NCBI GenBank assembly: GCA_000146465.1
Contig: CP001948.1
DNA length: 64,000 nucleotides
Strand: one strand, 5' to 3'
Shown: positions 5,925 through 51,274 of the stretch, one piece after another
How positions within the stretch are numbered: the first letter of the stretch is position 1
Layout of the letters: each line of letters opens with the position of its first letter
Position numbers and translations under genes: made by a program
The notes under the pieces: model-generated
What the model saw: only the letters and a program-made list of their open reading frames with translations
Told to the model about the DNA's origin: nothing
Database searches by the model: none

Positions 5925-8900
5925 TTATTCCATTCCGTACACAGAATGTCTTACAATTGTAGAGTCTCCATTTCCGTTTCTACTGAGTCTATAGAAGTAT
6001 TCAGGCCCGTCTCTACTTAGCAGCTGGACAAAATCCTCGTCGTGTGTGATTACAATCAGCTGGAAGTTGGAATCCTTTTTGTGCTTCGAGATTATCTTGG
6101 AGAGAGTGAATGCAAGGCTTTCTATGTTGTCTCTGTCGAGATTGGTCGTTGGTTCATCAAGAGCCAATATATTACAGTTGGAAGCAAAGGAATCTGCAAG
6201 CGCCAGTCTTATGAGAATGCTAGCTATCATCTTTTGTCCGGCACTCGACCTTCCTCTCATGTCGAGCTCCACCCCTCCTTTGATAAATACAACCTTGTAG
6301 TTATATGTTCTTTGGCCCGAACTCTCTGTCTTGATCTCTATCCAGTCAACGTCATCTCCTCGGTAAGTATTCATCCACAGGTCCTTCAGCGTTGCATTGA
6401 CTTCTTCTAACTTCGAGGTATGGAAATCCACAATAGCCTTGTCCAATGCCTGGATGCACTTCTCGAGGTCCAGAGAAGATATCTCCAGAGCCTTAACTTC
6501 AATGAAGCATTTGTTATAGTCCTCTACAGTCTTTTCATGATCTTTCTGAAGCTCCTGCCTACAGGACTTTATCCCCAGAGCAATCTGCTTGCATTCCCCT
6601 AGTAATAATGACTTCTGTGCAATCAGCTTCATCTTCTTTTCTTCCAAAAGCTGTTTCTTCTCTCTAAGTCTGGTTAGATACTCAAAGTCAATTTCAGACA
6701 ACTCCTTCTCTATTTCTTCAATTATCCTTTGTCTTTCGTAATACTTCACACTCTCCTCTGCCAGGACACGCATTTCATGCATAGTACGAATCTTCTGTCC
6801 AGCCTCCAAAACCTCATTTTTCTTCTCAAGGAGCTCATTTCTCACAGCATCAAACTTCCCTTCATCCTTAGCCTCATCACAATACTCAATATGAAGAAGC
6901 TTCTTCACCTTACTGTTCAGCTCTTCTATCTCTTTTTCAAGCACTGCTATTTCCTTTTCCTTTTGGTAGAAAATCTCCATACTCATTTCCAACTCTACTC
7001 TCTTTCTCGAAAACTTCTCCAGAATCTTCTCAACCCTGCCTTTCTTTCGCAATACTTCCTCAGAGACTTCTGCAATCCTCGCTCTTATGCTACTCCTCTC
7101 AATCTGGCGAATGGCTTCTTTTGCATCCTCTCGAAAATTGATCTTTTCTCGGATCTCTTTCTCTGCCCTAACTACTTCCTGCTTCCGCTCAAGATACTCA
7201 ATCCTTTCTTTCTTTCTTTTCATCTCCCCTCTCTTCTCCTCATAGATCTTCTTTATTCCATCAATCATTGACTTCAGCTCCTGAACAGACTCTCCTTCCT
7301 TTTCATCCTTCAGCTTCCCCTCTATCGAAAATAGCTCGGAAACTAATGAAAGATAAAACTCTGTTTTCTTGATTCCCTCAGACTCGTCCAGGATGTCTAA
7401 CTCCATCTCCTCTAGAACTTCCTCATCTACTATGCCTTCGCTAGGCTCGTATTTCAGAATAAGCCCAACAATCTCTTCTCGTTTCCTGTTTCTATCCATC
7501 ACTCCTTCATTGATCCTCTCTATTTCCGTCTTTCCCCTACTTTGTCTCTTGGATGTATTTTCTTTCCCTTCTAAAGAGACTCTTTCAATTGCAAGCTCCA
7601 GTCTTCTTTTAAACCCTATCTCTTCCTCCATAGAAAAGGATCGGTGGCAAATAGGACATCCATGGCTTCTTCTTCCATCCTCCAGCATTTCTCTATAAAT
7701 CTTTTCTCTCCACAAACTCTCTGACTCACTTGTCATATCCCAAAGCTCAAAGGCCTCCTTCTTTCCATAGAATCCTTCAAAGTTCAGTAGGTCAACTCCA
7801 AACATTGCTGAATCCGCTCCAAAGAATGTTCGATTTCTTTCTACAATTTCCCTTGCCTTTTCCACTTCACACTCATTTTTGTAGTAGAATCCTGAAACCT
7901 CTAACTCTAGCACTGCTTGATCTCCAGCTTTGAGTTGCATGGCTCTAAGCTCCTCACACTTCCGACCTATTTCCCTTTTGATTCTTTCATTCTCCTTCTC
8001 TCTTTGCATCATTTCAGCCTTCTTAAGATTTATTTCTGTCTCAATCTTCTTTGCCTTCCTCTCCTTCTTTCTAAGTTCTATTCTTTGTCTCTCAAGTTTC
8101 TGGTGAAGCTCAGAGACATTAACCTCGCTCAGAATCCCCTCAATCTCTTTCTTTCTGTTTCTTATCTGGCTCACCATGAAGTTTTTCTCTGCAATGCTAT
8201 ATGCATCGTTCAACCTCCTTTGATAGTCCTCTAACCTTTCTTCCAAGGCCTCCATCTCTCTATCTCCACTTATCTCCATCTTAAGCCTCTCCATCTCCTC
8301 CAAATATGAGACAGAAACATCTATACTTCCATTGTCCTCAAGACCCTCATATTCGTCCACTATTCTTCTCTTCTCAAAGAGGATTTTCGTCCGATTCCCC
8401 TCTTCCTCCTTCAGCTTCCGAAGCTCCTCCTCAAGCTCATTTATACGTTTCTTTTTGTCTCCAATGTCTTCCTCCACTTTCCTGAAAACCTCAAGAGCCG
8501 TTTCCCTGAAGTCCTTCTCAACCCTCAGCTCCAATGAAAGGTTCTTAAAAGCCTCTGTCTTCTGCCGTTTTGCTTCATCTAACAGAGAGGACTTAACAGA
8601 TATCTCCGAAAACACTCCGTCGAGTTCCCCCTTACTCCGGAGATAGCTGCTTCTTTTCTCGCTCAGACTCCTGAATCTTGCTTCCTTTTCCTCTGCATCC
8701 ATCTTCATCCTCTCGTACCTTTCCTCTACCCTCTTCAGGAACTCTCTGCTCAAAATTTCTCTTGCTTCTTCCAACTCCAACCTCTTTTCCTTCAGCCCAT
8801 CAATAAAGCTCTTTAGTTCCTTATGTTCGTTTCTTAGCAAATATGCCCTTTTCTCCCTTTCCCCATTCTTCTCAAGCTCCATATCTATCTCTTCAACAAT

Positions 8901-9686
8901 TCTTTCACATCTTCTTATTTCATTTCCATAGGCTTCAAGTTTTATCTCATTTCTTTCAATAGATCCACATCCATTTCTTATCCGTGACTCCAGCGATTCC
9001 TTCCTTTCCTTCATCTTTCTCAGGAACTCTAGCTCTTGCATCTTCATCCGGATATCCGAAGAGCATTCTTTCTTTGATGACTTCAGACTGTCCAAGGCCT
9101 TCCCATATTTCACAGATGCAAATATCTCGTCTAGCTTCTTCTTGACAACAATCGGTTCTCCAAGAGGCCATGTGCTTTCCTCCTGATGGCAGAATATAAC
9201 GTTTTCCAGTACACTACTCGACACCCCAAAGTGCTGTGGCATCTCCGTATCGACATCTCCACTCCTTCCACTCACTCCTCCTCCATCCTTTTCAGCCCAC
9301 ACCATACTTTCCAGTGTTTTTTGTTCCTTCTTACCTCCTCTCTGTGTTAACTGAAGAGAGCGCGAACATACCATCGTCTCCCCATGCACATTGGTAAACA
9401 AAAGCTTCACCTGTCCTTGAACCTCTACTAGTCTTGCAACCCTCGGGTCATAGATAAACGCTCCACCTCTACTGTTTGGAGGAAGACTTCCAGTACTGAT
9501 ATACTTCAGCGATTCGATTATCGTTGTCTTTCCTGTTCCGTTGGGCCCAACTATCAGTGTCAACGGAGAATAGAACTCCAGTATACTACCCTCTCTATGG
9601 CTGAATGACCTTATTCCTCGTATCATCAGCTTCTTAAGAGATGACATTCCGCAAGGGATCCAAACCTTTTCAAAGTACACTTTCAA
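5925..9686 (-). CDS. RAD50: DNA repair protein Rad50
   Basis: N-terminal Walker [20 protein letters not shown], a very long coiled coil, the central zinc hook GCPICHRSF (CxxC), and a C-terminal signature/Walker B region ([17 protein letters not shown]...LDEPTTNLD). Length 1253 aa. Confidence 0.85.
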
Positions 9687-9707
9687 AATACTACATAAAC
9701 TATAGCT

Positions 9708-10388
9708 TTATTTTTCCACACATTTGTTCATCATCGAAAGCACTTCCTCGCTTGCAACCCCAAGAAGCTCATCCCTCTCGTTTCGAGCAAGGCTACTCTT
9801 TACTTCCCTGTATTCAAGGAAGGTGTTGTAATCCTCGTCCCCAATACAGCTCACCATACTCATTTGGCTGTAGAGTCTCGTAACATTCTCAAGCTCCAAA
9901 CAGACCTCTGTAATCCTTCTGGCCAGGCCGTCCACAGACTCAGAACATTCAAGAAGAGATCTATACCACTCTTCCCTATATCTTTCAACCTCAATGCTTT
10001 CCCTCACTCCTTCAATCTCTGCTCTATAATAATCCTCAGACTCTAGTACATTCATCAGATCGTCCGTGATCGTCTGCAGATCCACCGTCACAACAACATC
10101 GCTCACTCTCCTCTCCGGTTGGAAAGAGCTCGGAAACCTAAGAATATTTCTCAAAACAAAGTTTGAAAATATAAAGTAGTTTCGACGAAAAGACTCCAAT
10201 ATCGTCCCTGACATTCGATGTATCTTTTTTTTGCCAAGAAACGATAGCTTCTCAATCCCTTCCTTCAGAATCCCTTCTATCTCCCCCTGTAGCTCAGAAA
10301 CTAGGGTCACAGGTGCAAATCCAAAGAACTCAATCTCTTCCTCGCTTCCCATCCTCAGGGTCAATTTTCTTTCCCCATTCTTATCCAA
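9708..10388 (-). CDS. Hypothetical protein, 226 aa
   Basis: ORF tightly packed between Rad50 and the next gene. No motif recognised. Confidence 0.35.
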   Translation of the reverse strand: MDKNGERKLTLRMGSEEEIEFFGFAPVTLVSELQGEIEGILKEGIEKLSFLGKKKIHRMSGTILESFRRNYFIFSNFVLRNILRFPSSFQPERRVSDVVVTVDLQTITDDLMNVLESEDYYRAEIEGVRESIEVERYREEWYRSLLECSESVDGLARRITEVCLELENVTRLYSQMSMVSCIGDEDYNTFLEYREVKSSLARNERDELLGVASEEVLSMMNKCVEK

Positions 10389-10393
10389 GACAA

Positions 10394-11521: not shown

Positions 11522-11557
11522 GGGCTTGGGATTTGATATCTAAATGAACAGTCTTCC

Positions 11558-12199
11558 ATGCCCATGACCTCGAAATATTCTGGAGTCAGTTTAGAGAGTG
11601 ATGAAGAGGAAAAGATTCATCCCAACATAGACGAGAAGAGTTATAAGGAATGGAAAAGAAGACAGAGAGAGCTGAAGAGAAAGGAGCTGGAAAGGAGGCT
11701 TGAAGAGATCAACTCGGTTGAATTTCCGAGTAAAGAGCTGGCCGAAGAGAGAGAGGAGATAGAGAAGATTTTGAAGCCATCCTATGTATGCCTTGGCACC
11801 GAGTCGTTCCGGACCCCCTCTTCAAATGAAGAAAAGGACTATATCCAGGAGTTGAGCCACCTTATAGTTCACAACGAGTTGGACAATTTTATTGAGCTGA
11901 TGGACCAGTGTAAAATTGACATGGAAGAGTTCGAGGTTGTTGTCCTTCACAATCTAGCAGAGCAAATCAAGGAAGGAAACGATGCAGGCGGGCTTATACT
12001 TTCGAAGATATCCTTGTATGTCAAGTATGCCTTGTCGCATGGAAAGGAATTTCTCTTGAAGCTACGTGCCCAACTTACAAACAAAGAAAGGCGAAGGCAA
12101 TTTGAGGAAGACTGTAGAAAGGACTTTGAAGAAACAAGACGAATGTTCTTGGAGCAGTTTGGCACATTGGACTCTACCTGTAGCCAGACTCCTAAATAG
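11558..12199 (+). CDS. CDC37: Hsp90 co-chaperone Cdc37
   Basis: N-terminus SDEEEKIHPNIDEKSYKEWKRR matches the conserved Cdc37 start (...[22 protein letters not shown]), followed by a basic coiled coil. Confidence 0.65.
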   Translation: MPMTSKYSGVSLESDEEEKIHPNIDEKSYKEWKRRQRELKRKELERRLEEINSVEFPSKELAEEREEIEKILKPSYVCLGTESFRTPSSNEEKDYIQELSHLIVHNELDNFIELMDQCKIDMEEFEVVVLHNLAEQIKEGNDAGGLILSKISLYVKYALSHGKEFLLKLRAQLTNKERRRQFEEDCRKDFEETRRMFLEQFGTLDSTCSQTPK

Positions 12200-12226
12200 G
12201 GGTGCTAGGGACCTAGAACGAATCTT

Positions 12227-12655
12227 TTATTTTGTGTTTGTCTTTAAAGCTGCAAACGGCTTATATAAAAACTCATAACAGCAGGAGATGACAAAGAAGA
12301 CATAAAGCAGCCATGACTTACTGGAGTAGAGCAGAAGCAGCTTCACAACCATCGAAATAAACAGGAAATCAAATGCAACACTGACATGGCCCTTTCCGTT
12401 AAGAGATGCCCCGGGGCTCACCAGAGTTGTTGTCTTTCCGTCGTGAGAAATAACAGGCGTTGAGATTCTATAGAGATAATAAACAGCAAGTGCCTCGGGA
12501 ATGGATCTAACAAGATATACCAGGATGTTTTTCTCTTTGTTCATCAAATACACTGCAAGCGCACATATGTTGTACAGAGCTATGCTTCTTAATATCAACT
12601 TCCTTGTGGTTTTGTTTTTTTCAAAAACTCGAATCTGAGACTTACTTCCTCTCAT
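12227..12655 (-). CDS. Hypothetical small membrane protein
   Basis: 142-aa ORF with 3-4 hydrophobic segments. Confidence 0.3.
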   Translation of the reverse strand: MRGSKSQIRVFEKNKTTRKLILRSIALYNICALAVYLMNKEKNILVYLVRSIPEALAVYYLYRISTPVISHDGKTTTLVSPGASLNGKGHVSVAFDFLFISMVVKLLLLYSSKSWLLYVFFVISCCYEFLYKPFAALKTNTK

Positions 12656-12758
12656 CTTTGTAGGGCAGAAATAGTAAAAAATATTGATTTCCAGAGCATT
12701 TGTTTAATTCCATTTCCCAAGATAAAAATAGCCTTCCCAGAAGAGGAAAGCTTACATG

Positions 12759-13061
12759 CTATCCCCCTACTTGTGATGTTACCACTTCGAGTTCTTCATT
12801 GCCCTCAAAGCCGAGGTCGCCTGGGGTTTTCCCAGGATCGATATTCTTTCCATTAAACAATAGACGGAACTCCGAGCTGTTCTTCCCGACATTGGAAGAA
12901 AAGGCATCGAGTATCTTCTTGAATGTTGTAGCCGGCTTGACATTGAACACAAGCATTGTACCATCCTGGTCAATAAGCTTCAGCGGCATCTTTTCTGAGG
13001 AAGTTATTTGCGGGATATTCTCTTTGGTCTTGGATTCATTTCCAGAATCCGGCGATCCCAT
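12759..13061 (-). CDS. SMT3: SUMO (Smt3)
   Basis: Ubiquitin-like fold ending in a di-glycine (…TSQVGG-stop). LKLIDQDGTMLVFNVKPATTFKKILDAFSSNVGK...LLFNGKNIDPGKTPGDLGFEGNEELEV matches the SUMO consensus. Start taken at the internal M (MGSPDSG); the track ORF abuts the upstream gene's stop. Confidence 0.75.
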   Translation of the reverse strand: MGSPDSGNESKTKENIPQITSSEKMPLKLIDQDGTMLVFNVKPATTFKKILDAFSSNVGKNSSEFRLLFNGKNIDPGKTPGDLGFEGNEELEVVTSQVGG

Positions 13062-13103
13062 GGGGTTTCCATCCCACTTGTTTTTGGCCCTGTTTCCTCC
13101 CAA

Positions 13104-13826
13104 TTATCCCTCTTCCCTATCTTCCATCTTTTTTTTCTGGTTTCTTGGCTCCTGAAGCCTGTAGAGTGTGGAAGCTTCGCTGTAGTATGCATTGCCATCT
13201 CTTATGCAGAGAACCAGGAGATTGTCTATCTTTTGTGGTGAGCATGTGAAGACTCGTCCGTCGGACATACAGGCTTTCTTGAACAGCTGGGAAGACCCTT
13301 CTTCTAGAATGGTAAAAGAATCTTTTTGGAAGTCTATCCCGTCCGACTGGATAATGACACTCTCATCTTCCGTCGACGGAAAGAGACTGTAAACCTCTTC
13401 GGCCTTGATGTTCTCGTCTGTAGGGTGAACTATTGTGTTTACATCCTCGAAGGACTCTTGGATATATTTTTGATAGTCGAAGATCTTACTCATGCTTTTC
13501 TTTATCCTTTCTCTCTCCAGAGCCTCGCCTCTTCTTTCCAGCCCACTGGAAGCTCCAAGTCGATGCCCAGGCTTTCCCGTACTTGAGGCCTCCCTTTCGA
13601 TATAGTCCATGACCATTTCTACGAAGTCTATGTCCAAGGCTTCAAGAAGATCTGTATGTAGCCGCCTTGGCACAATCTTCTCAAGGGACCCGTCAAATGA
13701 GGTGAAGTCTCTTTTTATCTGAGGCTCAATGTAGCACATCCCAGGTGTTGGTGCGGGAGGTGCATTTGCCCAGCATATGCTCTCTTCAAGCTCACGGAAG
13801 GCTTTTTCTGGATCCATCTTGGGCAT
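13104..13826 (-). CDS. Hypothetical protein, 240 aa
   Basis: ORF with no recognised motif. Its stop is immediately adjacent to the SUMO ORF. Confidence 0.4.
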   Translation of the reverse strand: MPKMDPEKAFRELEESICWANAPPAPTPGMCYIEPQIKRDFTSFDGSLEKIVPRRLHTDLLEALDIDFVEMVMDYIEREASSTGKPGHRLGASSGLERRGEALERERIKKSMSKIFDYQKYIQESFEDVNTIVHPTDENIKAEEVYSLFPSTEDESVIIQSDGIDFQKDSFTILEEGSSQLFKKACMSDGRVFTCSPQKIDNLLVLCIRDGNAYYSEASTLYRLQEPRNQKKKMEDREEG

Positions 13827-14074
13827 TGGGTTGAGAATTTTTCTAGGGTTGATTAAGGCCTTGGCAGCTTTGCCGGCGAAGAAATAAACTTTAAAATCAA
13901 GTGGTCGGGTGCTGGAGAGTAGTCTGAATCCTGTTACAGCACAAACAGCTGCCTTTCGAGTTGGACTATTGGAGTCTAAGACATCGTCCAGTTTCCAAAC
14001 TCCTTCTAGTCATTCCGTTCCGGTCATAGAAGAAGTGAACTTTTCTGTTATGAACGATTTCTGGCATTAACCAG

Positions 14075-17000
14075 ATGCCCTTTCGGCAATGTGTCTCATC
14101 TCAGACCTTCCCAAGGGCAGAGCCCCTAATCGAAAGCTTCCAGCCGCCGACAGGGGTAGGAGAAGAAAAATTTATGAATGGCAGAAAGGCCCTTTTGATG
14201 AATCTAAGGCTAGAATCGATAACAATCCACAACTTCAAAAGCTACAAAGGGACCCATGTGATCCAAGGCCTGGATCCAAGGTTCACGGCGGTAGTTGGGG
14301 CAAATGGCTCGGGGAAGAGCAACATAATAGACAGCATTCTTTTTGTGCTTGGGTTCCGAGCCCGAAGGATGCGTCATTCGTCGATGGCAGGCTTGATCTA
14401 TAGTGGAGACGGAAACCAAGACATGTGTTATGTAGAGCTAGGATTCAACAAGTTCCAAATAAGGAGAGAGGTTTCCTTGGCAGGAAGGACTAGGTATTTT
14501 GTGGATGGAGAAGAGGTACCTTGTACTATGGTGGAGTCTTTGCTCAAGAGCGAGGGTGTTGATATGGAGCACAATAGGTTTTTGATACTACAAGGAGAGA
14601 TCGAGAATATTGCTATGATCAAGCCCATGGATGGTGGTTTGCTGGAATATCTTGAGGATGTAATTGGGACTGGAGAATACAAGGCAGAGATTGAAAAGGA
14701 AGAAAGTGAGCTCCGAAGGGTCTCTGAGGAATGTGAAAGCAAGTCGGCAGCACTGAAGTTCTATGAGAAGGAATACAAACATATTGAAAGAAAGCAGGAG
14801 GAGTGTCTGAGGACAGCCAAAAGAAGAGCTGAATGCCTGTGTCTGGATCGGGATTTACATCTTCTCTTTTCAGAAAGAGGGAAAAAGAAGCTAGAAGGGC
14901 TTCTGTTGGAAAAAAAGAAGATTGAAGAAGATCTTCAGGTCCTTGAAAAGAAGAATAAAGAGAATGGAGGCAAGCTTGAGGTACTGGAAGGGAAAGGAGC
15001 AAATGCAAGAGTTTCGGCTCGAGAAGCCGAGGAGAGGTTTTTGAAGGCGAGAAAAGAATACCAGAGAGCAGAAAGACGAAATAAAATGATGGAAGAGGAC
15101 CTGGAGAGGGAGTCAAAGCGTATTGAGGAGTTATCTCGTGAGATTTCTGAAATCAGGTGTCTGGAAGATAAAAGGCAAAAGGAGGGGCTTAAATGGACAG
15201 AGGAAATTAATCGAAATGTGGAAGAGATCTCTAGATGTAGTGAATTAAGCGAGAAGCTCCGAAGTGAAATTGGAGAAGGACAGAGAAGGATTGAGAAGGA
15301 GGCCAGAAAGAGTATTGAAGAGATTTACAGAGAAGAAGAGCGGATGATGAAGCTTCTCAAGAGGAAAGGAGAGATTGGAGAGAAACAACGAGAATCGGAA
15401 TCTCGATTAGGAATTCTGATGTCGAGGAAGGAGGAGATTTTGAGAAGGGTTGGGGACATCGATGGCAGGCTATCGAAAATGGATGAAGGAAAAATAGAAA
15501 TGGGAAGGTCTGAGGAGGAAATTAGCAGGGAGATTGAAGAGATTGAGAGGGATCTGGCGAAGACAAGAAAGGAAATGAGTAGAAGAATGCAAAGGGCTGA
15601 AGAGCACAGAGAAAACGAGGAGACAAGTTGGAAGGAGAGAGAGATTCTAAGAAGTATTGAGCATGTGAAAGGAGTCTATGGAAGGCTAAGTGATCTTGGG
15701 TCTGTGGAGTCCCAATATGATAGGGCATTCAGGATTGCAGGAAAGGGATTGAACAGCATAGTTGTTGATACAACATGCACTGCAGAAGAGTGTATTTCCA
15801 TAATAAAAAGTCTGGGACTTGGGAGAGCTACATTTATAATATTGGACAGGATTTCCTCGGAGCCTAGCCTTCCTAAGGAGTCTGTGCCTTATCTGTACAA
15901 TCTTGTCAAGTGCCCAAAGGAGTTCCGAAAGTGCTTTTATTTTGCTCTGAAAGACACACTTGTATGCGAAGGATTGGAAGTGGCCGAGAGGCTTGCATTT
16001 GGAAAGACAAGAAAAAGGGTTGTGACGATTGATGGAAAGCTTATTGAGAAGAGTGGAGTCATGAGTGGAGGAAAAGGGAACGGAAGGATAAAAAGCATTG
16101 AAGAGCTTGAGAAGGCGTGCTTGAAGATGATGGAGCTGAAGAAGAAGAAAGTTTCGGAGATGGATATGGTTAGAGACTTGAAGGAAAGAGGAGCCCTATG
16201 GAAGACCCGAGAAAGACTTGCTTCGGACTTAGAGGAAGTGTGCCGGGAGATTGGGAGAGTAGAGAAGAGGATCAATCGAAAAGAGATAGAGGATATTGAA
16301 GTAGAGATTGAGAAGATTAAGAAAAAAGTGTCTTCTCTCCGAGAGGGAATTGAGAGTCTTACCGACATGGAGACCCGTAGGAAGAAAGAAAACCTTCGAA
16401 ATCTTAACGAGAGGATTGAGGTGTTTGAAAAGAGAAACCTTGAACTGAGACTGCATCTTGAAAGCAGTGGATCAGGGGAGCTTCGAGAAAAAGAGCTGGA
16501 GGTTGAAAGAAGAAAAAAAGACTTTGAAAGAATCAGCATCGAAGATATTTCAGGAATGAAGAGCAAGATGATTGAATGTGAAAGGGAATATAAAGAATGT
16601 GCAGAAAGGTTGAGGGGGATATTGAAGGAGATTGCAAACGTGAAAGCCTCTCTTGGAAACGACTACCATATGGAAATTGACCTGAAGAACAGGTTGGATG
16701 ATGCTTGCGATAAGATTGAGGAGTGGACACAGAGGATTAAGGAGAGCGAGACAAAAATAGCTTCTCTTGAGGAAGAATCCAAGAAGTATATGAGGATATG
16801 CAGGCTTGAAATCCATAGTACAGTCAAGGTTGAGGAAATGAACGAAGAGGAAATTGATCGGACAATAGGAAGGATCGGTGGCACGGTGGCAAGACTTAAA
16901 GGCGAAGAGATTGGAGAGATTGATCTAGATGTGTTTGAAGATTGTGAGAGGGCAAGGGTGGAATACGAGAAGGCAAAGGGGGAACATGGATGGTTTGAAT

Positions 17001-17515
17001 CTCGGCAGAAGGAGATCAAGGAGTCACTTGAGTATCTGAAAAAGAAGAGGTACGACGAGTTTATGAAAGGATTTACTCAAGTATCTGAAAACCTTAAGGA
17101 GATTTATAAGTCGATTACACATGGGGGAAACGCAGAATTGGAATTAGTTGACCATCTTGATCCGTTTAGCGAGGGGGTGGTTTTGAGTGTAATGCCACCT
17201 AAGAAGAGCTGGAAGAACATTGGGAATCTGAGTGGAGGGGAAAAGACACTCAGTAGCCTTGCACTTATTTTTGCACTCCATAAATTCAGGCCATCCCCGT
17301 TCTATGTTATGGATGAGATAGATGCGGCTTTGGACTACAGAAATGTAGGAGTGATATCCCACTTCATCAAGGAGATGTCCAGGACAGCCCAGTTTCTTGT
17401 GATAAGTCTGCGAAGTGACATGTTCGAGCTCAGCGAAACCCTCCTTGGAGTGTATAAGGCAAACAATGCTTCTCAATCTCTGATTGTAAACATAGGCAAG
17501 CTTGCAGGCCAATAA
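14075..17515 (+). CDS. SMC4: SMC family ATPase, SMC4-like (condensin)
   Basis: N-terminal ITIHNFKSYKG...AVVGANGSGKSNIIDSILFVLGFRARRMR, hinge GVYGRLSDLGSV...AGKGLNSIVVDT, C-terminal LSGGEKTLSSLALIFALH and the D-loop MDEIDAALD. The FRARRMR element after Walker A resembles the SMC4 YRAxKIR element. Confidence 0.85.
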   Translation: MPFRQCVSSQTFPRAEPLIESFQPPTGVGEEKFMNGRKALLMNLRLESITIHNFKSYKGTHVIQGLDPRFTAVVGANGSGKSNIIDSILFVLGFRARRMRHSSMAGLIYSGDGNQDMCYVELGFNKFQIRREVSLAGRTRYFVDGEEVPCTMVESLLKSEGVDMEHNRFLILQGEIENIAMIKPMDGGLLEYLEDVIGTGEYKAEIEKEESELRRVSEECESKSAALKFYEKEYKHIERKQEECLRTAKRRAECLCLDRDLHLLFSERGKKKLEGLLLEKKKIEEDLQVLEKKNKENGGKLEVLEGKGANARVSAREAEERFLKARKEYQRAERRNKMMEEDLERESKRIEELSREISEIRCLEDKRQKEGLKWTEEINRNVEEISRCSELSEKLRSEIGEGQRRIEKEARKSIEEIYREEERMMKLLKRKGEIGEKQRESESRLGILMSRKEEILRRVGDIDGRLSKMDEGKIEMGRSEEEISREIEEIERDLAKTRKEMSRRMQRAEEHRENEETSWKEREILRSIEHVKGVYGRLSDLGSVESQYDRAFRIAGKGLNSIVVDTTCTAEECISIIKSLGLGRATFIILDRISSEPSLPKESVPYLYNLVKCPKEFRKCFYFALKDTLVCEGLEVAERLAFGKTRKRVVTIDGKLIEKSGVMSGGKGNGRIKSIEELEKACLKMMELKKKKVSEMDMVRDLKERGALWKTRERLASDLEEVCREIGRVEKRINRKEIEDIEVEIEKIKKKVSSLREGIESLTDMETRRKKENLRNLNERIEVFEKRNLELRLHLESSGSGELREKELEVERRKKDFERISIEDISGMKSKMIECEREYKECAERLRGILKEIANVKASLGNDYHMEIDLKNRLDDACDKIEEWTQRIKESETKIASLEEESKKYMRICRLEIHSTVKVEEMNEEEIDRTIGRIGGTVARLKGEEIGEIDLDVFEDCERARVEYEKAKGEHGWFESRQKEIKESLEYLKKKRYDEFMKGFTQVSENLKEIYKSITHGGNAELELVDHLDPFSEGVVLSVMPPKKSWKNIGNLSGGEKTLSSLALIFALHKFRPSPFYVMDEIDAALDYRNVGVISHFIKEMSRTAQFLVISLRSDMFELSETLLGVYKANNASQSLIVNIGKLAGQ

Positions 17516-19240: not shown

Positions 19241-19819
19241 TTGTTTGGGATCAAATTTTCGGCTTTTTTGTCTCTGGCTTATATCTGTAACTTACCCTCA
19301 ACTGGAATGAGACTCAAGGCCTTGATAAAAAAGAGGACAAACGATCTTCTAGTTGCCTTGAGAAGTCTTAGAGGAAAGATATGCAGTGAAGACGTTCTTA
19401 GACAAGTTCTGGGCAATATCCATAAAAGCTATATCCGCCTTGAGGTGCTACTAAATAAGCCAGGACTTTCACATCAGGAGCCTGTGGAAGTTGATTCCAC
19501 AAATGGAGTCGTAAGGTATAAAACAGGGAACCTTGAATTTCTGTATCATGAGGAACATGGGGTTATCTCTGTAAGCACAGGCGACACGGGGATAAATAAT
19601 TACCTCCTCTGTTTGATAAGAGGCAAACCGGTCGACACACACTTAGAAACTGCTTCGGCAATGCTTGGGATGTATGCAGGAAATGAAAGAGCATTGTGTG
19701 ATGTGTGTGGAAATTATGCAACTGTTCCAGGGCTCTTGACACCGATATGCCGGTCTCCTGAAGAAGACTTCGTACTTGTACACCACGCCCAATGCAAAGT
19801 GGAATCTCTGGAGAAATAA
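19241..19819 (+). CDS. Hypothetical protein, 192 aa
   Basis: ORF that overlaps the next same-strand ORF by 28 nt in another frame. Confidence 0.3.
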   Translation: MFGIKFSAFLSLAYICNLPSTGMRLKALIKKRTNDLLVALRSLRGKICSEDVLRQVLGNIHKSYIRLEVLLNKPGLSHQEPVEVDSTNGVVRYKTGNLEFLYHEEHGVISVSTGDTGINNYLLCLIRGKPVDTHLETASAMLGMYAGNERALCDVCGNYATVPGLLTPICRSPEEDFVLVHHAQCKVESLEK

Positions 19820-20373
19820 TATTTGAACGCCTGCAACAAATTTTGCACAATCCCCTTAGGATGATTGAATGCTCCGTATTCGGATATTTGATGGAGGTCG
19901 ATTGTATCTGCAACCATCTGAAGTTGCATAAAAGAACAGACAAAACTGTTAGTGAAGCCGTTTATTCTAATGGGACAAATGTGTTGCTTGTGTCTAAGGA
20001 GGATGATGGTATTTACCTGTCAAGCAGAGGGCCACCCGACAGAAACAAGAACAGAATGTCGTTCTGCTCAAGAGTACAGAAGTCAAGGATTAGGACATTA
20101 GACACTTTGAAGGAGTTTCTATCTTCGTTTGGCTTTGAGCTGGTGAGGGAAGGGCAAGTTGAACTAACCACCTTTGAGAAAGGAGCAGGGCGCATTGAAA
20201 TATCCAGGTCCATCTCTGATGAGGGCAACAGCCAGGAAGTAGACACCGGCAGATATTGGCTAGTCAAGGTATTTGTAACTTCAGAAAACACACAGAACGG
20301 AGAAAGAATGTTAAGCAGGTTAATCGAGGAGCTGGAAGACCAAGTCCAACTCATCAAACCCTCAATAAAGTGA
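19792..20373 (+). CDS. Hypothetical protein, 193 aa
   Basis: ORF with no recognised motif. Confidence 0.35.
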   Translation: MQSGISGEIIFERLQQILHNPLRMIECSVFGYLMEVDCICNHLKLHKRTDKTVSEAVYSNGTNVLLVSKEDDGIYLSSRGPPDRNKNRMSFCSRVQKSRIRTLDTLKEFLSSFGFELVREGQVELTTFEKGAGRIEISRSISDEGNSQEVDTGRYWLVKVFVTSENTQNGERMLSRLIEELEDQVQLIKPSIK

Positions 20374-20481
20374 TTTCGGCAGTCTCAATAATATGTATTT
20401 CTGCTCCTTTCCACCTCTCCAATGATTTTATTGGAGGCCCTGATCAAAACCCCTTAAGCCAGTGAAAAGAACCCTCCCTAG

Positions 20482-31003: not shown

Positions 31004-31843
31004 TTAATTAGCCATGACCATGGATTGCTCCTTGATCGCAAAGTCGGCTCCGAAGGAAACATGCAGGATATCCTTGAATGAGTTTCGGATGTTGTATGGC
31101 ATACTGGCTTGAGTAATGATTTCGGCACCAAGGCTTATTGCTGCTATGCTGCTTATTGCACTTCTCAAGGATGAGACGATGTCTTCCGTTCCGATGTCGA
31201 TGAGAGATGAATCATAAATCACTCCATCCTCGTAGACCTGGTGCATCACCATCTTGTAACTGAATGGCTTGATGTTGAGCATTCCAAGGAGGTTGGCCTG
31301 TGAAGGCCCCACCTTATCTCCTACAGAAAGAACCTTGTATGGAGAGATGATCTCCACCTTACCCTTTGTGATCTTGGTTGCTATTCCAAGAACCTGGAAG
31401 TATGATGTCTTGTCTGGAGTCATTCCTGTGATGCAGTTTTCCACCCATACGTCTTTCTGTGCAATGTTTCCAACCTTGGCACACGCTTCTCTGACGTTAT
31501 CGTCAATGGCCTTCTTGACATCCCTAACGTCTCCCTTGAAAAACACAAAGCAGACGTCTCCCTTGATGAGCTCAAGGATACTTGACAGCTTGGGATTTTC
31601 AAGACTTGCTACTGCACGCTTGATTGCCGAGTTCTTTCCCATGAGAAATTCAACATCCTCTCCCCAACCCTTCTTGATGTTCTTGAGCTGAGTCGACTCC
31701 ACATTCTCGATTCCCACAAGAGCAAACCTGGTGTAGGTTCCAAAGAGCCTCCTAGCCTTCTCATATACCTGTTCCTTCCTTTCCTTGGAGTCCTTTCTAG
31801 TCATTCCAGGGTGAAAAAATTTCTCTCTTTTGGACTCCGGCAT
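31004..31843 (-). CDS. RPP0: 60S acidic ribosomal protein P0 (uL10)
   Basis: [16 protein letters not shown]...[12 protein letters not shown] and [45 protein letters not shown] match the P0 core. Start taken at the internal [10 protein letters not shown]; the track ORF starts at a non-ATG codon and would overlap the next gene. Confidence 0.8.
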
Positions 31844-31964
31844 ACCCAAAGAGCTCTGGCCAGTCTGGTGGAGCCCTATCAAGAGAAGTTCTGATTTGAA
31901 GGTCATTCCAGCCACCCTCTGAATGGACGGGGTGGTCAGAAGGATTTCCAACCGGCTTGGAACA

Positions 31965-34900
31965 ATGCCAAAGGAAACAACAGAAATGATTTCCCAAGCA
32001 CTCAAGGATCCATCCTATCAGGAGAGACTGGTTGAGATTCTTGGATATGAGATGATGGAGGAAGTGGAGATGATTTGTGCAAACAAAGAGTACTTTGTTT
32101 CTCAGGAAGAGGTAGAGGACCACGGCTTTTATGTGGAGTACAACTTTCCAGAGTCCATTCCCATAGAGGTTGACTGTTCAGAGATTGTTAGTACAGATGT
32201 GATGGGGGGATACAAGAAGTACTTCGACTACAAGAAGTTCAACGGGGTCCAGTCAAAGGTGTTTAACTCGGCATACCAGAGCGATGGAAACATGCTGGTC
32301 TGTGCACCAACAAGCTCTGGAAAGACAGATATTGCATTTCTATGTGTTCTCCGGGCACTTGGTAAGGGAGACAAGGTTGTTTATGTCGTTCCGATGAGGG
32401 CATTAGCAACAGAAATAGCATCGAAGTACAGAAAGAAGCTTGGAGAGCAAAGGGTTGTGGAGTACACTGGAGACACAGAGATAAAGACAGAAGATGTGGC
32501 AAGGTGCGATGTCATAGTGTCAACACCGGAGAAATTTGATGTTGCAACACGAAGACAATGCAATGTATTCCAGAGCCGTGTTGGGCTTGTTATACTTGAC
32601 GAGGTTCACATGCTCCAGGACGAGAGGGGGCCTGTTTTAGAAGCGATTGTATGCAGAGTGCTTAGGTATGTAGAGCTCCGCCAAAGACCCATACGTGTTG
32701 TGGGGCTTTCTGCCACACTCCCTAACTATGAGGATGTGGGAAGGTTCCTCAGGGCCGAGCATGTGTTCAGCTTTGACCAAGGATATAGACCTGTTCCACT
32801 GAAGATGCAAGTTGTTGGAATGAAGAAGAGGAGCAAGCTCCAGCTCGAGGATGAGTTTCTAAAAAAGAAGGTGGAGAGATATCTGAGTGATGGAAAGCAA
32901 GTTCTGGTGTTTGTGCATTCCAGGGGAGAAACTTCTAGGACAGCAAAGCTTTTGAGTGATGATGGAGAAAGAAGAGATGTAAAGGGAGGAGTAGTGGGAG
33001 GAATACTTTTGGAACTGGCTCGAAGGGGGGTTGGGATACACCATGCTGGACTTCCTCGGAAGATAAGACTGTATATGGAAGATGAATTCAAGGCAGGGAG
33101 GCTAAGGATATTGGTTACGACATCAACCCTGGCATGGGGAGTCAATCTTCCGGCATATGCAGTGGTGATCAAAGGAACCAGATTTTATGACTCTTCTCAG
33201 GGAGGATTTAGGGATGTAGGCATTCTGGATGTATTACAAATATTTGGAAGGGCTGGGAGGCCTCAATTTGATTCCAGGGGAGAGGGATGTCTGATAACGA
33301 CAGGGGACAAGATGGACCATTATGTGTCTCTCCTCAAGAACAGCAGGGATGTGGAGAGCAGGCTGCTTCGACATGTTGCAGATATCATGAACGCAGAGAT
33401 ATACCTGAACACGATTGAGGATGTCAACACGGCTGTGGAATGGCTAAGAAGTACTTTTATGTATGTCAGGATGTCCAAAAATCCTATGTGTTACGGATTG
33501 AGTAAAGAAGATTTGTATGATGAATACAAGGCCCTGTCGGATTATGCTATTCTTACATGTAGAAGGCTAGAGGAGTGCTCGATGATAAGAATACATAGAA
33601 AAAGGATTGGAGACTTTCAAACATGGAGATTCTGTAGCACGGAGTATGGGAGGATTGCCAGCATGTATTATCTATCTCATGAAACCATGGAGAGGTGGCT
33701 GAGGGAAATAGAAGATATATATGACGAAGACTCCATACTTAGGCTTTGCTTTGAAGATAGGGAGCTTTCGGTGCTGGGATGTAGGGAAGAAGACGAAGAA
33801 AGTATCAAGGAGCTTTGTATGGAGGTTGGAGTTAAATACGAGGTGTCGATAGGATGTAAGCTGATGGTTCTTGTGAAAGCACATATCAAAAGACTCCCAA
33901 TCCAAAGGTTTTCACTTGCATGTGACAGTGAGTATGTTGTCAAGAATCTCCGGAGGATTCTGATGGGGCTATGCCAGATCCTGATATTCCAATGCAAGCA
34001 TCTATTTGTTGCAAAATGTTGCATACTATTGAAAAGAATAGAAAGGCAAAAGGAAAAGCCTTGGGATGCCAACAACAGAGTCGAAGTAGATCTTTTCCGA
34101 GTTCTTGGAATGGTTAGAATGGAAGTTTCCCTGAAGATGAAAGGGGAATATTGGATATTTGTATGGGATGGAGACTCTGCCATCTACTCGGGTCTCTTTG
34201 CACATCGAGCAAATTTATTCATCAAAACAAAGTGTGATGTGTTGAGGATTGAGATTGTTGCACGAGATGAATGGGCAAGAACAGAGGAGAGATGCTGGGT
34301 TAGCCGAGACACAAGTACAAGATCATTGTACCATAACGGTGTCCATGAGTGTGATCAAGGATGGTCTTTGGTAGGAGAGAAGCAAAGCTGTTCCCATTTC
34401 TGTGTGATAAAGTCGCTTTCGGATCTTTCCGATATGATGGATGGATGGAGATTGGACGGAATCTCCGAGCCTGGAAGATTGATTATGACAAACAGAAGGA
34501 TTAATTTTTCGAGTATGAGGAAGGGAGACATAAGCATAAAAGGGTGGGATAAGAGAGATCTAAGGGATGCTCCTGGTGTGAGTGTGGGCTACTTAATGCC
34601 CGAGGTTCCGCCGAGATATGTTAAGTATATTTTGTGTGATTTTTCTCTTCGGATAAAATTTGTGCAAATCGACTGCATGCTGTTCAGGGAGAGGCTTCAG
34701 CTCATGAGCTCCTGTATCACATTCATGGATAACTACGAAAGCAAGAAAGTTGTCATAGTGGCACCAGACACAAGTGACATGGAAAGAACAGCACAAGACC
34801 TCGAGACTAGAATGACTCTGAAGAGTTTGTCTTGTGGAAAATGTGATGTGAAAGTAAGGCGTGGAAGACCTATGGCAGGAGACACAGGGATATTTGTAAC

Positions 34901-35090
34901 TGCATTTGATAGGAGGTTGGAGATACAAAAGGATTTCACGGTGATTTTCAAGGGATGTTCCAATTCCAATGGATATTTTCCTATATTTGAGGTTTTGAGG
35001 ATATGCGACTCGAGAGAGGCGCTTATATATGAAGGAAGGGACTATATAGAGTATTTTAATAGCTGTGTACTGAACGGGGATGAAGAATGA
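31965..35090 (+). CDS. DExH-box helicase with a Sec63 domain (Brr2/Slh1/Mer3 family, single cassette)
   Basis: Motif [13 protein letters not shown], motif II DEVH, motif VI HHAGL, plus a winged-helix and Sec63-like C-terminal region. Start moved to an internal ATG to remove the overlap with P0. Confidence 0.7.
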
Positions 35091-39241: not shown

Positions 39242-39883
39242 CTAGCTCTCATGCTTCACAAAGCTGAACTTGCTTTTGCACTTCTTGCAGACAGGAACAA
39301 ACCTGCAGAACACAGAGAGACATATTGGACATACAAGCCCCAGCAGAACTTGCTTGTTATGGCAATAGCAGGTTGCAGGGAATCCCAGAGGCTTTGAATC
39401 TCCTTTTGTTCCAAGGAGAGAGAGTAGAAATCTCAAACATCCGTCTTCAGATGTTGAATAACCGCCGCCCGTTGCAGCACAACATTGGAGAATCGTCTTG
39501 TTTTCAAACAGCGAGAATGCACTTATTCTTACTCCAAACCTCTGTGCAGCAAACATGCATTTCAGATATCTCAGATACTCGTCGTTCCGCTCCTTCTCAA
39601 GTGTAAATATTACGATTTGGGATTCCCCGAGTCTGTGGAGACACAATGCATATCCGAGATCCCCCACGTCATAGCTGGACTGGTGTTGAGTTATCCTGTA
39701 TATTTCCTCGATGCTACTTTCCAAGGAGTCGAAGAGGATCTTCTTCCCACTTACGACGACAATTCGATTGTTTCGGCTTGACTTGTGATATGCATTCAAA
39801 AAGACAACAACGTCATTGAAGAGGTCTCTCCCCGTCATCTCCCAATTCTCTTTCTTCAGGTCGATTAGAAGGAAAAGAATCAT
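39242..39883 (-). CDS. TFB4: TFIIH subunit Tfb4/p34
   Basis: vWA-like N-terminus with LFNDVVVFLNAYH ~ yeast Tfb4 VLEALIVFLNAHL, and a C-terminal zinc finger CYCHNKQVLLGLVCPICLSVFC...CKKC. The track's N-terminal extension is translation through the tRNA, so the start is moved to an internal ATG. Confidence 0.6.
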   Translation of the reverse strand: MILFLLIDLKKENWEMTGRDLFNDVVVFLNAYHKSSRNNRIVVVSGKKILFDSLESSIEEIYRITQHQSSYDVGDLGYALCLHRLGESQIVIFTLEKERNDEYLRYLKCMFAAQRFGVRISAFSLFENKTILQCCAATGGGYSTSEDGCLRFLLSLLGTKGDSKPLGFPATCYCHNKQVLLGLVCPICLSVFCRFVPVCKKCKSKFSFVKHES

Positions 39884-39928
39884 GAGGGATTGGCAAGGAC
39901 AGATCTTGTGTTCTGTGGAGCAAAAAGA

Positions 39929-40009
39929 TGTCAGAAACGGGATTCGAACCCGTGCCTCAATGAGAATACGACCTGAACGTATCGCCTTAGACCACTCGGC
40001 CATCCTGAC
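39929..40009 (-). tRNA. tRNA-Leu, anticodon CAG, class II with a long variable arm
   Basis: Reverse complement reads GTCAGGA-T-GGCCGAGTGGTctAAGGCG-ATACG-TTCAGGT-CGTAT-variable-ACGGG-TTCGAAT-CCCGT-TTCTGAC-A. It has a 7-bp acceptor stem with one G-U pair, a D-loop of the Leu/Ser type, an anticodon loop TTCAGGT giving CAG, a T-loop GTTCGAATC, and no encoded CCA. Coordinates +/-2 nt. Confidence 0.8.
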
Positions 40010-44373: not shown

Positions 44374-44676
44374 ATGATTGAAGGTCTTTCGACGTTTTCT
44401 GGACGCACCATGCCAAAAGGATCTGGAATCTACTCGGTGATGAACGACGGCAGGACGATACTGACGGCATCGAACAAGGAGAGAAAGCTTATCCAGCGAA
44501 AGATCAATCCACGAGATATCCGATGGACGACGACAAGTAGGGAGTTCTTTGGAAAGGAATCCCAATATGTGGTTGAGAAGATGAATGTGCAGAAGGTCAA
44601 GATCGTCCGTGGATTTAGACATATCAGTGCTGGCTTGCTTGAAAAAGCCAGGCAGACAGAGTCTTCAAGAAAATGA
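44374..44676 (+). CDS. Small basic protein, weakly SRP14-like
   Basis: SGIYSVMNDGRT resembles SRP14 SGSVYITLKKYDGRT. The rest of the alignment is weak. Confidence 0.25.
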   Translation: MIEGLSTFSGRTMPKGSGIYSVMNDGRTILTASNKERKLIQRKINPRDIRWTTTSREFFGKESQYVVEKMNVQKVKIVRGFRHISAGLLEKARQTESSRK

Positions 44677-50568: not shown

Positions 50569-50933
50569 TCAGAAGCAGGGCTGCTCCCCAGAGACATAAG
50601 TCAAGTCGGAAGAAGAAAGTTTATTTCGCATTGTACTGCTTGACCATGTTAATAAAAACCTTCCCTGCAGGCGTAGATGGGCATATGACCCTCCTGCAAA
50701 AATACGTCTGCATGACTTGCATTTCCATATTCCAACTGCCGTTCTCTTCACACTCTTCTTTCCACATGCCTCACAGCTGTACTTGGCCCTCTGTGTTTCA
50801 AGAACCGCTTTCATTCTCTTACGGAGAGTCGATCCATATCTTGCTCCGAAAGAGCCTGCAATCCCTACCTTCTTGGTTTTTCCCTATAAGTTAGTCTGCT
50901 TCAGAATCCCCTTGGTCCCAAGTCACTTACCAT
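50569..50933 (-). CDS. RPL43: Ribosomal protein eL43 (L37a), two exons: ATG at 50931-50933, intron 50884-50930, exon 2 from 50883 downward
   Basis: Spliced product [69 protein letters not shown] matches the eL43 N-terminus and C4 zinc ribbon. The track ORF lacks the first 27 residues. The 3' portion appears frameshifted; see findings. Confidence 0.85.
50884..50930 (-). other. Spliceosomal intron, 47 nt, immediately after the start codon of eL43
   Basis: mRNA sense: ATG|GTAAGTGACTTGGGACCAAGGGGATTCTGAAGCAGACTAACTTATAG|GGAAAAACC. The 5' splice site is GTAAGT, the branch point ACTAAC lies 5 nt before a 3' AG, and splicing restores the reading frame. Confidence 0.85.
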
Positions 50934-51274
50934 TTTGATGGGTAAAAAAAATTCTCCTTAAACCGCAATACTTGCAGGACACCTTCCAAGAGATGATGCA
51001 TCCGTCAGGAGCGGTCGTTTATCTTTTCCTCAAGAAATCCCTCCCCCGTCAGTTTCTTGAAACTTTCAATGTTCTTATTGATGCTTTCTATTAATCTATC
51101 TCCAAGTTCTATTTCAATTCCCTTTGCGGGATTAGAATTCAGGTGAGAAATAGCCAATCCTACGAGAGACAGAAGCATCCACATTGTTTACAGGCTTCCG
51201 TTACACTAAATAGTCTGTGTTTTGGATCATTCATTTCAAAACTCGATACATCCAAAAACAACTTGGGTTTACTA

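What the first reader, a model, noticed from the sequence alone, without database searches (positions are those of the whole stretch)
50884..50933. eL43 gene carries a 47-nt intron immediately after its ATG, and the ORF track misses the first exon
The track ORF starts at MKAVLE and lacks the conserved eL43 N-terminus. Upstream in the same frame the sequence encodes [23 protein letters not shown], preceded by a stop. On the coding strand an ATG at 50931-50933 is followed directly by GTAAGT...GACTAACTTATAG. Removing these 47 nt joins ATG in frame to GGA AAA ACC, giving [13 protein letters not shown]..., the canonical eL43 start. An ATG+GTAAGT arrangement with a short intron and a branch point adjacent to the AG is the hallmark of microsporidian ribosomal-protein-gene introns. 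It is the only intron I could find in 64 kb.
Basis: partly seen in the sequence, partly recalled or inferred. Interest (0 to 1): 0.6.

Follow-up and report, generated by a model that had tools for sequence, protein, structure and literature searches.

The report
Known start-codon intron in eL43

Summary
On the minus strand, ATG (50933-50931) is followed by a 47-nt GTAAGT...GACTAACTTATAG intron (50930-50884). Removing it joins ATG to GGA AAA ACC and gives [13 protein letters not shown]..., a full eL43 N-terminus. The Pfam score rises from 62.8 to 105.4 bits and the match starts at profile position 1.

The window is Encephalitozoon intestinalis ATCC 50506 chromosomal DNA, 2010 assembly. GenBank already annotates this spliced product (ADM11859.1 / XP_003073219.1). 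The same intron position is present in E. romaleae and in two unnamed relatives. It is published for E. cuniculi, Anncaliia algerae and Octosporea bayeri L37a. The published ribosomal-protein promoter signal (AAATTT-like plus CCC) sits directly before this ATG.

In about 54 kb of the window covered by a newer annotated assembly, eL43 is the only gene whose span exceeds its product length.

The window has CCC at 50679-50681 where four later E. intestinalis assemblies have CCCC. This frameshifts the C-terminus, giving 105 aa ending ...EQPCF instead of 88 aa ending ...[19 protein letters not shown]. It is most likely an assembly error.

Verdict: real, correctly interpreted, already known, low interest.

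The parts
50934..50955 (-). Ribosomal-protein promoter / transcription-start signal AGAATTTTTTTTACCCATCAAA (AAATTT-like motif plus CCC at 50942-50940), ending directly at the ATG
   Evidence: Sequence. It is 21/22 identical to the E. cuniculi L37A upstream signal ATAATTTTTTTTACCCATCAAA, which is flagged '(intron)' in Additional file 3 of PMC2803860. The motif is defined. Equivalent signals precede the ATG in L002, L003 and L004.
50931..50933 (-). Exon 1: the start codon ATG only
50884..50930 (-). 47-nt spliceosomal intron, phase 0. 5' splice site GTAAGT at 50930-50925; branch-point motif GACTAAC at 50896-50890 (branch A inferred at 50891, 7 nt before the last intron base); 3' AG at 50885-50884
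   Evidence: for the sequence. for conservation of position and signals with a diverged interior; the newer annotation gives a 314-nt gene span for an 88-aa product, an excess of 47 nt.
50621..50883 (-). Exon 2 of eL43, codons 2-88 plus the stop TAA at 50623-50621. As given in the window it is one base short and so changes frame at 50679-50681
50679..50681 (-). C-run with one C missing (CCC here, CCCC in later assemblies). It causes the frameshifted tail AHLRLQGRF...EQPCF, which ends at TGA 50571-50569
   Evidence: alignment with L001; the only difference found in window 25916-64000; adding one C gives exactly P0001; 88-aa form in 4 assemblies, 105-aa form in 1
50620..50625 (-). AATAAA polyadenylation-type signal overlapping the true stop codon
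   Evidence: for the sequence. AAUAAA is named as the Encephalitozoon poly(A) signal in PMC2803860. Its role at this site is inferred.

Best explanation
This is the eL43 (RPL43 / L37a) gene of Encephalitozoon intestinalis. Exon 1 is only the start codon. It is followed by a 47-nt U2-type GT-AG spliceosomal intron of the short, 5'-biased class typical of Encephalitozoon ribosomal-protein genes.

Shown here: the sequence signals, the restored eL43 reading frame, conservation of the intron position in relatives, the promoter signal in front of the ATG, and the existing public annotation.

Inferred mechanism: transcription starts a few bases upstream of the ATG, at the AAATTT/CCC signal. U1 snRNA recognises GUAAGU. 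U2 snRNA recognises the ACUAAC branch point, which lies only 7 nt from the 3' AG. Splicing then joins AUG to GGA AAA ACC. Unspliced mRNA would stop after 10 codons ([10 protein letters not shown]), so only spliced mRNA can give an eL43 with its conserved N-terminus.

The aberrant C-terminus in this window comes from a single-base undercall in a C-run of the 2010 short-read assembly. It is not biology.
For: Signals and frame.

eL43 identity: Pfam PF01780 scores 105.4 bits over profile positions 1-68 for the spliced product, against 62.8 bits over positions 23-68 for the ORF alone. With the frame corrected it scores 117.4 bits over positions 1-82.

Relatives: the best PDB sequence match is E. 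cuniculi ribosome eL43, 7QEP, at E 1.3e-48 over residues 2-88. N-terminal residues T4 K5 K6 G8 I9 G11 G14 R16 Y17 G18 L21 R22 K23 are invariant across 10 eL43 sequences.

Intron conservation: the same position is occupied in E. romaleae (48 nt) and in two unnamed relatives (45 and 30 nt). All keep GTAAGTGA at the 5' end and a branch-point/TAG at the 3' end, and all have stops if retained. Intron identity is lower than exon-2 identity in every pair: 0.55-0.75 against 0.75-0.88.

Public annotation: the 105-aa ATCC 50506 protein starts MGKTKK, and the 88-aa protein has a 314-nt gene span.

Literature: the L37a intron is listed for E. cuniculi and is homologous in O. bayeri (PMC2784321). L37A is flagged '(intron)' in E. 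cuniculi and A. algerae, with the same upstream signal (PMC2803860 supplement). E. intestinalis shares the E. cuniculi intron complement, with 14 introns of 23-47 bp (PMC4355639). These introns usually start directly after the ATG (PMC6349667). All annotated E. cuniculi introns were confirmed as spliced by RNA-seq (PMC3629993).

Chance: 0 of 200 randomisations gave ATG plus the motif.

Frameshift as an error: the window is 100% identical to GCA_051312775.1 over 1-15466 and 25916-64000 apart from this one base. The 88-aa product is found in four assemblies. One of them is UTX45613.1, which I infer from the accession batch to be the telomere-to-telomere re-sequencing of the same isolate, ATCC 50506. 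The 2010 assembly was built from 31-bp reads with Velvet.
Against: No transcript data for E. intestinalis were examined, so removal of the intron in this species is inferred from sequence, conservation and E. cuniculi RNA-seq. In E. cuniculi most short introns are spliced in under 50% of transcripts, and one predicted 27-nt ribosomal-protein intron appeared unspliced by RACE, so efficiency here is unknown. The PDB sequence is the depositors' sequence and does not prove that the N-terminal residues were seen in density. The E. cuniculi and E. hellem DNA for this gene was not read here; only their annotated proteins were.
Confidence: 0.95

Rival explanations
1. There is no splicing. Translation starts at the internal ATG (M25, MKAVLE...) and the organism makes an N-terminally truncated eL43. 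The upstream GKTKKVG... segment would be an untranslated relic.
For: The mechanical ORF starts there. Microsporidian proteins are often shortened, and many E. cuniculi short introns are spliced at low levels.
Against: The 23 upstream codons match Pfam profile positions 1-22 and add about 43 bits. They are conserved at the protein level in seven Encephalitozoon-group sequences while the intron interior diverges. The ribosomal-protein promoter signal sits in front of the upstream ATG, not in front of M25. The splice signals are conserved in four genomes.
Confidence: 0.02
2. The gene in this isolate is a decaying pseudogene, or the 1-nt deletion is a real polymorphism that is tolerated or corrected by ribosomal or transcriptional slippage at the C-run. 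The aberrant 105-aa tail would then be biological.
For: The window and the RefSeq/UniProt entry XP_003073219.1 / E0S824 both carry the frameshifted form.
Against: eL43 is a single-copy essential ribosomal protein. Four later assemblies give the intact 88-aa protein, and one of them is apparently the same isolate re-sequenced with long and short reads. This base is the only difference in more than 53 kb compared. It lies in a homopolymer in an assembly made from 31-bp reads. The other frame encodes a tail conserved across species. An AATAAA signal overlaps the corrected stop. A re-annotation study lists 11 unpredicted frameshifts, sequencing errors or pseudogenes for the E. intestinalis genome annotation.
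Confidence: 0.03
3. The ATG-GTAAGT...ACTAAC...AG arrangement is a chance motif with no function.
For: One other strict motif match in the window (6363-6417, plus strand) is clearly chance, being antisense to a long ORF.
Against: 0 of 200 randomisations gave the motif preceded by ATG. Here it also restores a conserved reading frame exactly, and it is conserved in position in other genomes.
Confidence: 0.005

Closest known systems
Encephalitozoon cuniculi 60S ribosomal protein L37A (L43) intron (GB-M1 protein CAD25633.2 / NP_001402248.1)
   Same: It is the orthologous gene, with an intron flagged in the same gene. The upstream signal is 21/22 identical (ATAATTTTTTTTACCCATCAAA). The protein is 88% identical. 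It belongs to the original E. cuniculi intron set, and all annotated E. cuniculi introns were confirmed as spliced by RNA-seq.
   Different: E. intestinalis eL43 lacks one N-terminal residue (MGK-TKK against MGKGTKK). The E. cuniculi intron DNA was not read here, so its length and sequence identity are not compared.
E. intestinalis ATCC 50506 annotated gene product ADM11859.1 / XP_003073219.1 (the 2010 genome reported in PMC4355639)
   Same: It has the same sequence as the window product: 105 aa, starting MGKTKK. The annotators therefore already spliced out these 47 nt. The paper reports 14 manually detected introns of 23-47 bp.
   Different: Nothing differs. The record carries the same frameshifted C-terminus. 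The later entries UTX45613.1, KAL7345405.1, KAL7347308.1 and KAL7349315.1 give the corrected 88-aa protein.
Short 5'-biased ribosomal-protein introns of microsporidia in general (for example L19, L27a, L37, L39 and S26 in E. cuniculi and O. bayeri)
   Same: GT-AG boundaries, strict GTAAGT and ACTAAC motifs, a position at or just after the ATG, and a stop or frameshift if retained.
   Different: At 47 nt this intron is about twice the roughly 25 nt described as typical. It equals the upper limit of the size range reported for E. intestinalis (23-47 bp). It is still shorter than the 76-nt 'long' poly-A-binding-protein intron class.
Start-codon-proximal introns of Saccharomyces cerevisiae ribosomal-protein genes
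   Same: [quoted passage not shown]
   Different: Yeast introns are generally 50-1000 nt and are spliced at about 80% on average. E. cuniculi introns are 22-76 nt and are mostly spliced below 50%. Whether the position in eL43 is homologous with yeast was not tested here.

Membership tests
U2-type (GT-AG) spliceosomal intron, Encephalitozoon short 5'-biased class | GT...AG boundaries with the strict 5' splice site GTAAGT | tested here: met
   GTAAGT at 50930-50925 and AG at 50885-50884
U2-type (GT-AG) spliceosomal intron, Encephalitozoon short 5'-biased class | Branch-point motif (ACTAAC-like) close to the 3' AG | tested here: met
   GACTAAC at 50896-50890; the branch A lies 7 nt before the last intron base. 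The motif is conserved in L002 and L004 and is TTAAC in L003.
U2-type (GT-AG) spliceosomal intron, Encephalitozoon short 5'-biased class | Length within the reported range (22-76 nt in E. cuniculi; 23-47 bp in E. intestinalis) | tested here: met
   47 nt; ranges
U2-type (GT-AG) spliceosomal intron, Encephalitozoon short 5'-biased class | Retention gives a premature stop or frameshift, and removal restores a conserved ORF | tested here: met
   Unspliced reading gives [10 protein letters not shown], and 47 is not a multiple of 3. The spliced product matches PF01780 from profile position 1.
U2-type (GT-AG) spliceosomal intron, Encephalitozoon short 5'-biased class | Intron position conserved in orthologues | tested here: met
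   E. romaleae and two unnamed relatives. Literature covers E. cuniculi, A. algerae and O. bayeri.
U2-type (GT-AG) spliceosomal intron, Encephalitozoon short 5'-biased class | The segment is actually removed from the mRNA | not testable with these tools
   No E. intestinalis transcript reads were available. In E. cuniculi all annotated introns were confirmed by RNA-seq (PMC3629993), but the per-gene values are in a figure that is not held.
eL43 / Ribosomal_L37ae (PF01780) | Pfam score above the gathering threshold across the whole domain | tested here: met
   105.4 bits as given and 117.4 bits when frame-corrected, against a cut-off of 21.9
eL43 / Ribosomal_L37ae (PF01780) | Four-cysteine zinc ribbon (CxxC...CxxC) | tested here: met
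   C38, C41, C56 and C59 are invariant in the alignment
eL43 / Ribosomal_L37ae (PF01780) | Intact conserved C-terminal segment | tested here: not met
   In the window as given, the frame breaks at 50679-50681 and the Pfam match stops at profile position 68 of 85. The segment is intact in four other E. intestinalis assemblies, so this is judged a sequence error in this assembly and not a property of the gene.

The most novel reading that the evidence does not exclude
The most novel reading left open is that this unusually long (47-nt) start-codon intron is retained because it regulates eL43 output. That could work through deliberately inefficient or eL43-feedback-controlled splicing, with the conserved GCAGACTAAC stretch as a recognition element, rather than the intron being a passive relic. 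A weaker alternative is that the missing C reflects real heterogeneity in the 2010 culture. Nothing here tests either idea. In E. cuniculi, splicing changes over the course of infection were mostly too small to indicate regulation.
Probability: 0.05. Interest if true: 0.4.

Novelty: already known. Interest (0 to 1): 0.08.

Why it matters
It matters little as a discovery. The intron has been in the public annotation of this very genome since 2010, and in the literature on E. cuniculi L37a before that. Two practical points follow.

1. A prokaryote-style ORF track will always miss exon 1 of such genes. In Encephalitozoon, the ATG+GTAAGT pattern together with the AAATTT/CCC promoter signal is a reliable way to rescue them.

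2. The RefSeq/UniProt entry for E. intestinalis ATCC 50506 eL43 (XP_003073219.1 / E0S824, 105 aa) carries a false C-terminal tail caused by a one-base homopolymer error. It should be replaced by the 88-aa sequence (for example UTX45613.1) in any structural or comparative work.

Tried and rejected
1. A second strict intron-motif match at 6363-6417 (plus strand) was rejected. It lies antisense inside a 1253-aa Rad50-like ORF, and one such hit is within chance expectation.

2. About 20 relaxed-motif hits (GTRAGW...YTRAY...AG) were inspected by position only. None is preceded by ATG. Those inside the region covered by the newer annotation fall in genes annotated as unspliced.

3. The ATCC 50506 locus could not be fetched through P0004, and E. 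cuniculi DNA could not be fetched through P0002. Neither is on record in the contig index. E. cuniculi and E. hellem are therefore represented only by protein and literature evidence.

4. A search of the MicroAnnot supplements for L37/L43/Eint_07 found nothing. I could not confirm that this gene is among the 11 frameshift or sequencing-error cases listed for E. intestinalis.

5. The Grisdale 2013 text and supplements do not name L37a, and the per-gene splicing levels are only in a figure.

6. An Rfam scan of the window found no snRNA, only RNase P RNA and one tRNA.

7. Two of the look-ups meant to cover window 15.5-25.9 kb returned only short read-archive contigs with prokaryote-style gene calls. 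That stretch therefore lacks an intron-aware annotation check.

Full report
**Observation**

On the minus strand the window reads ...AGAATTTTTTTTACCCATCAAA ATG GTAAGTGACTTGGGACCAAGGGGATTCTGAAGCAGACTAACTTATAG GGA AAA ACC AAG AAG....

- The ATG is at 50933-50931.
- The 47-nt GTAAGT...TATAG stretch is at 50930-50884.
- GGA starts at 50883.

The mechanical ORF covering the gene (50569..50814, 81 aa) begins at MKAVLE. Upstream in the same frame lies [23 protein letters not shown]. It is preceded directly by TAG, which is the 3' splice site itself. Reading straight on from the ATG gives [10 protein letters not shown] followed by a stop.

**Is it more than chance?**

ATG followed by GTAAGT, then NCTAAC, then AG within 8 nt occurred in none of 200 Markov-1 randomisations of the window. 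Without the ATG the motif is expected 0.375 times per window and was found twice. The other hit (6363-6417, plus strand) is antisense to a 1253-aa Rad50-like ORF and is a chance match.

**What the spliced product is**

The table shows Pfam PF01780 (Ribosomal_L37ae) scores.

| Product | Score (bits) | Profile positions matched |
|---|---|---|
| Spliced, as given in the window | 105.4 | 1-68 |
| Track ORF alone | 62.8 | 23-68 |

The 23 codons upstream of M25 therefore carry about 43 bits of family signal. The best match among solved-structure sequences is eL43 of the E. cuniculi ribosome (7QEP, E 1.3e-48). Next come Vairimorpha necatrix (6RM3), Paranosema locustae (6ZU5), fungi, archaea and others, including yeast L43. 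In an alignment of ten eL43 sequences, thirteen N-terminal positions before M25 are invariant, as are the four zinc-ribbon cysteines.

**Source of the window**

- A neighbouring 423-aa SSRP1/POB3-like protein is encoded identically in E. intestinalis assembly GCA_051312775.1, record CM119895.1.
- The window is 100% identical to that record over window 1-15466 and 25916-64000, except for one base.
- The as-given spliced product (105 aa) is exactly ADM11859.1 / XP_003073219.1, '60S ribosomal protein L37A (L43) [Encephalitozoon intestinalis ATCC 50506]'.

The window is therefore from the 2010 ATCC 50506 genome, and its annotators had already removed these 47 nt. PMC4355639 states that spliceosomal introns were detected manually. 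[quoted passage not shown] Later annotations give an 88-aa product from a 314-nt gene span, an excess of 47 nt.

**Conservation**

The table lists the element found directly after the ATG in each relative.

| Source | Intron length | Intron sequence |
|---|---|---|
| E. romaleae (L002) | 48 nt | GTAAGTGACC...GCAGACTAACTTTATAG |
| Unnamed relative, read-archive assembly (L004/L005) | 45 nt | GTAAGTGAGT...GGCAGACTAACTTTAG |
| Unnamed relative, read-archive assembly (L003) | 30 nt | GTAAGTGAAG...GGTTAACTTTAG |

In each case the unspliced reading hits stops, and the spliced reading gives an 88-89 aa eL43. L002, L004 and L005 also share the flanking gene order. Intron identity (0.55-0.75) is below exon-2 identity (0.75-0.88) in every pair. 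The conserved bases are concentrated at the 5' splice site and the branch-point/3' end. That is the pattern expected of an intron and not of coding sequence.

**Start-codon support**

PMC2803860 showed that Encephalitozoon 5' UTRs are only a few nucleotides long. It also showed that ribosomal-protein genes carry an AAATTT-like signal followed by a CCC motif just before the start codon. Its supplementary table lists L37A in E. cuniculi with ATAATTTTTTTTACCCATCAAA '(intron)', and A. algerae L37A is also flagged '(intron)'. The window has AGAATTTTTTTTACCCATCAAA at 50955-50934, which is 21/22 identical and ends at the ATG. Similar signals precede the ATG in the three relatives.

**Literature on the class**

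- PMC2784321 names L37a among the E. cuniculi ribosomal-protein genes with reported introns. It also reports a homologous intron in Octosporea bayeri at or near the start codon.
- PMC3629993 reports that all previously annotated E. cuniculi introns are spliced in RNA-seq. However, 30 of 37 are spliced in under 50% of transcripts. All contain stops or cause frameshifts if retained.

**Mechanism**

Shown here: the canonical splice signals, the restored frame, the conservation and the promoter placement.

Inferred from established spliceosome biology and the E. cuniculi data:

1. U1 pairs with GUAAGU.
2. U2 pairs with ACUAAC, with the branch A at 50891, only 7 nt from the 3' end.
3. Excision joins AUG to GGA.
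4. Efficiency is unknown and may be low, as in E. cuniculi.

A Brr2/SNRNP200-type helicase, which is a spliceosome component, is encoded in the same window at 31923-35090.

After ...FAGGSYA the as-given frame continues [36 protein letters not shown], which resembles no eL43. Another frame encodes [19 protein letters not shown], which does.

Alignment with the newer assembly shows a single missing C in the run at 50679-50681: CCC here, CCCC there. Adding it gives exactly P0001, the 88-aa protein.

The 88-aa form is annotated in four E. intestinalis assemblies: UTX45613.1, KAL7345405.1, KAL7347308.1 and KAL7349315.1. From the accession batches, these correspond to the telomere-to-telomere re-sequencing of ATCC 50506 (PMC10158259) and to three other isolates (PMC12697097).

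The 2010 assembly was built from 31-bp reads with Velvet. An AATAAA signal (50625-50620) overlaps the corrected stop TAA (50623-50621). I conclude that the missing base is an assembly error, and it persists in RefSeq and UniProt.

**The claim that this is the only intron in 64 kb**

In the newer annotation covering window 1-15466 and 25916-64000, every fully contained called gene has a span equal to 3 x (residues + 1), except eL43. The other two ribosomal-protein genes in the window are annotated without introns:

- uL10/P0 at 31004-31804 (minus strand)
- eL24 at 44374-44676 (plus strand)

Both carry their own AAATTT/CCC signals. Window 15.5-25.9 kb was covered only by the motif scan and by tight ORF packing. 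With 14 introns originally annotated and 19 more added on re-annotation in about 2.2 Mb, one intron per 64 kb is about the expected density.

**Verdict**

The feature is a textbook Encephalitozoon ribosomal-protein intron that is already annotated in this genome and published for its orthologues. It is therefore already known and of low interest. The one-base frameshift is a useful curation note.

Noticed in passing
window 50679-50681 (minus strand): One C is missing from a C-run relative to four later E. intestinalis assemblies. This frameshifts the eL43 C-terminus, giving 105 aa ending EQPCF instead of 88 aa ending KQYNAK. The error persists in XP_003073219.1 / UniProt E0S824. It is the only difference found between the window and GCA_051312775.1 in more than 53 kb.
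   Followed up: yes
window 13908-14148 (minus strand): Nuclear RNase P RNA (Rfam RF00009, 99.8 bits, full-length model match). The mechanical ORF 14075..17515 (SMC protein) overlaps it. The newer annotation starts that gene at window 14198, so the first 41 codons of the ORF-track version look spurious.
   Followed up: partly
window 39929-40009 (minus strand): tRNA-Leu(CAG), 81 nt. It is overlapped by the mechanical ORF 39242..40003 (253 aa), whereas the annotated Tfb4-like protein is 213 aa (39242-39883). This is another ORF-track over-extension.
   Followed up: partly
window 31923-35090 (plus strand): A 1055-aa DEAD/Sec63 helicase with a SNRNP200 (Brr2) winged-helix domain. It is a core spliceosome component, encoded 16 kb from the intron. 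An SF3a60/Prp9-like gene lies just beyond the window end, in locus L009 at 19377-20480.
   Followed up: no
window 31004-31804 (minus strand) and 44374-44676 (plus strand): The two other ribosomal-protein genes in the window (uL10/P0, 266 aa; eL24, 100 aa) are annotated without introns. Each has an AAATTT-like plus CCC signal just upstream of its ATG (GAAATTTTTTCACCCTGGA-ATG; AATAATTTTTCGG...GTCCCTTC-ATG). The ORF track over-extends P0 to 333 aa from a TTG.
   Followed up: partly
L003 99-131 (read-archive assembly DRR353006): An unnamed Encephalitozoon-like relative has only a 30-nt intron at the same position, with a non-consensus branch-point-like motif GTTAAC. L004/L005 (SRR21023579/80) come from another unnamed relative with a 45-nt intron. 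The organisms were not identified.
   Followed up: partly
protein P0002 (E. cuniculi AGE95905.1 / UniProt M1K9R9): This E. cuniculi strain record gives the eL43 N-terminus as MVRTKK..., whereas GB-M1 and the 7QEP sequence give MGKGTKK.... 'MV' is what ATG GTA would encode, so the splice boundaries in that record look mis-set.
   Followed up: no
window 6363-6417 (plus strand): A perfect GTAAGT...TCTAAC...AG motif of 55 nt lies antisense to the Rad50-like gene (5925..9686, minus strand). It is a chance match and shows that the motif alone is not sufficient evidence for an intron.
   Followed up: yes
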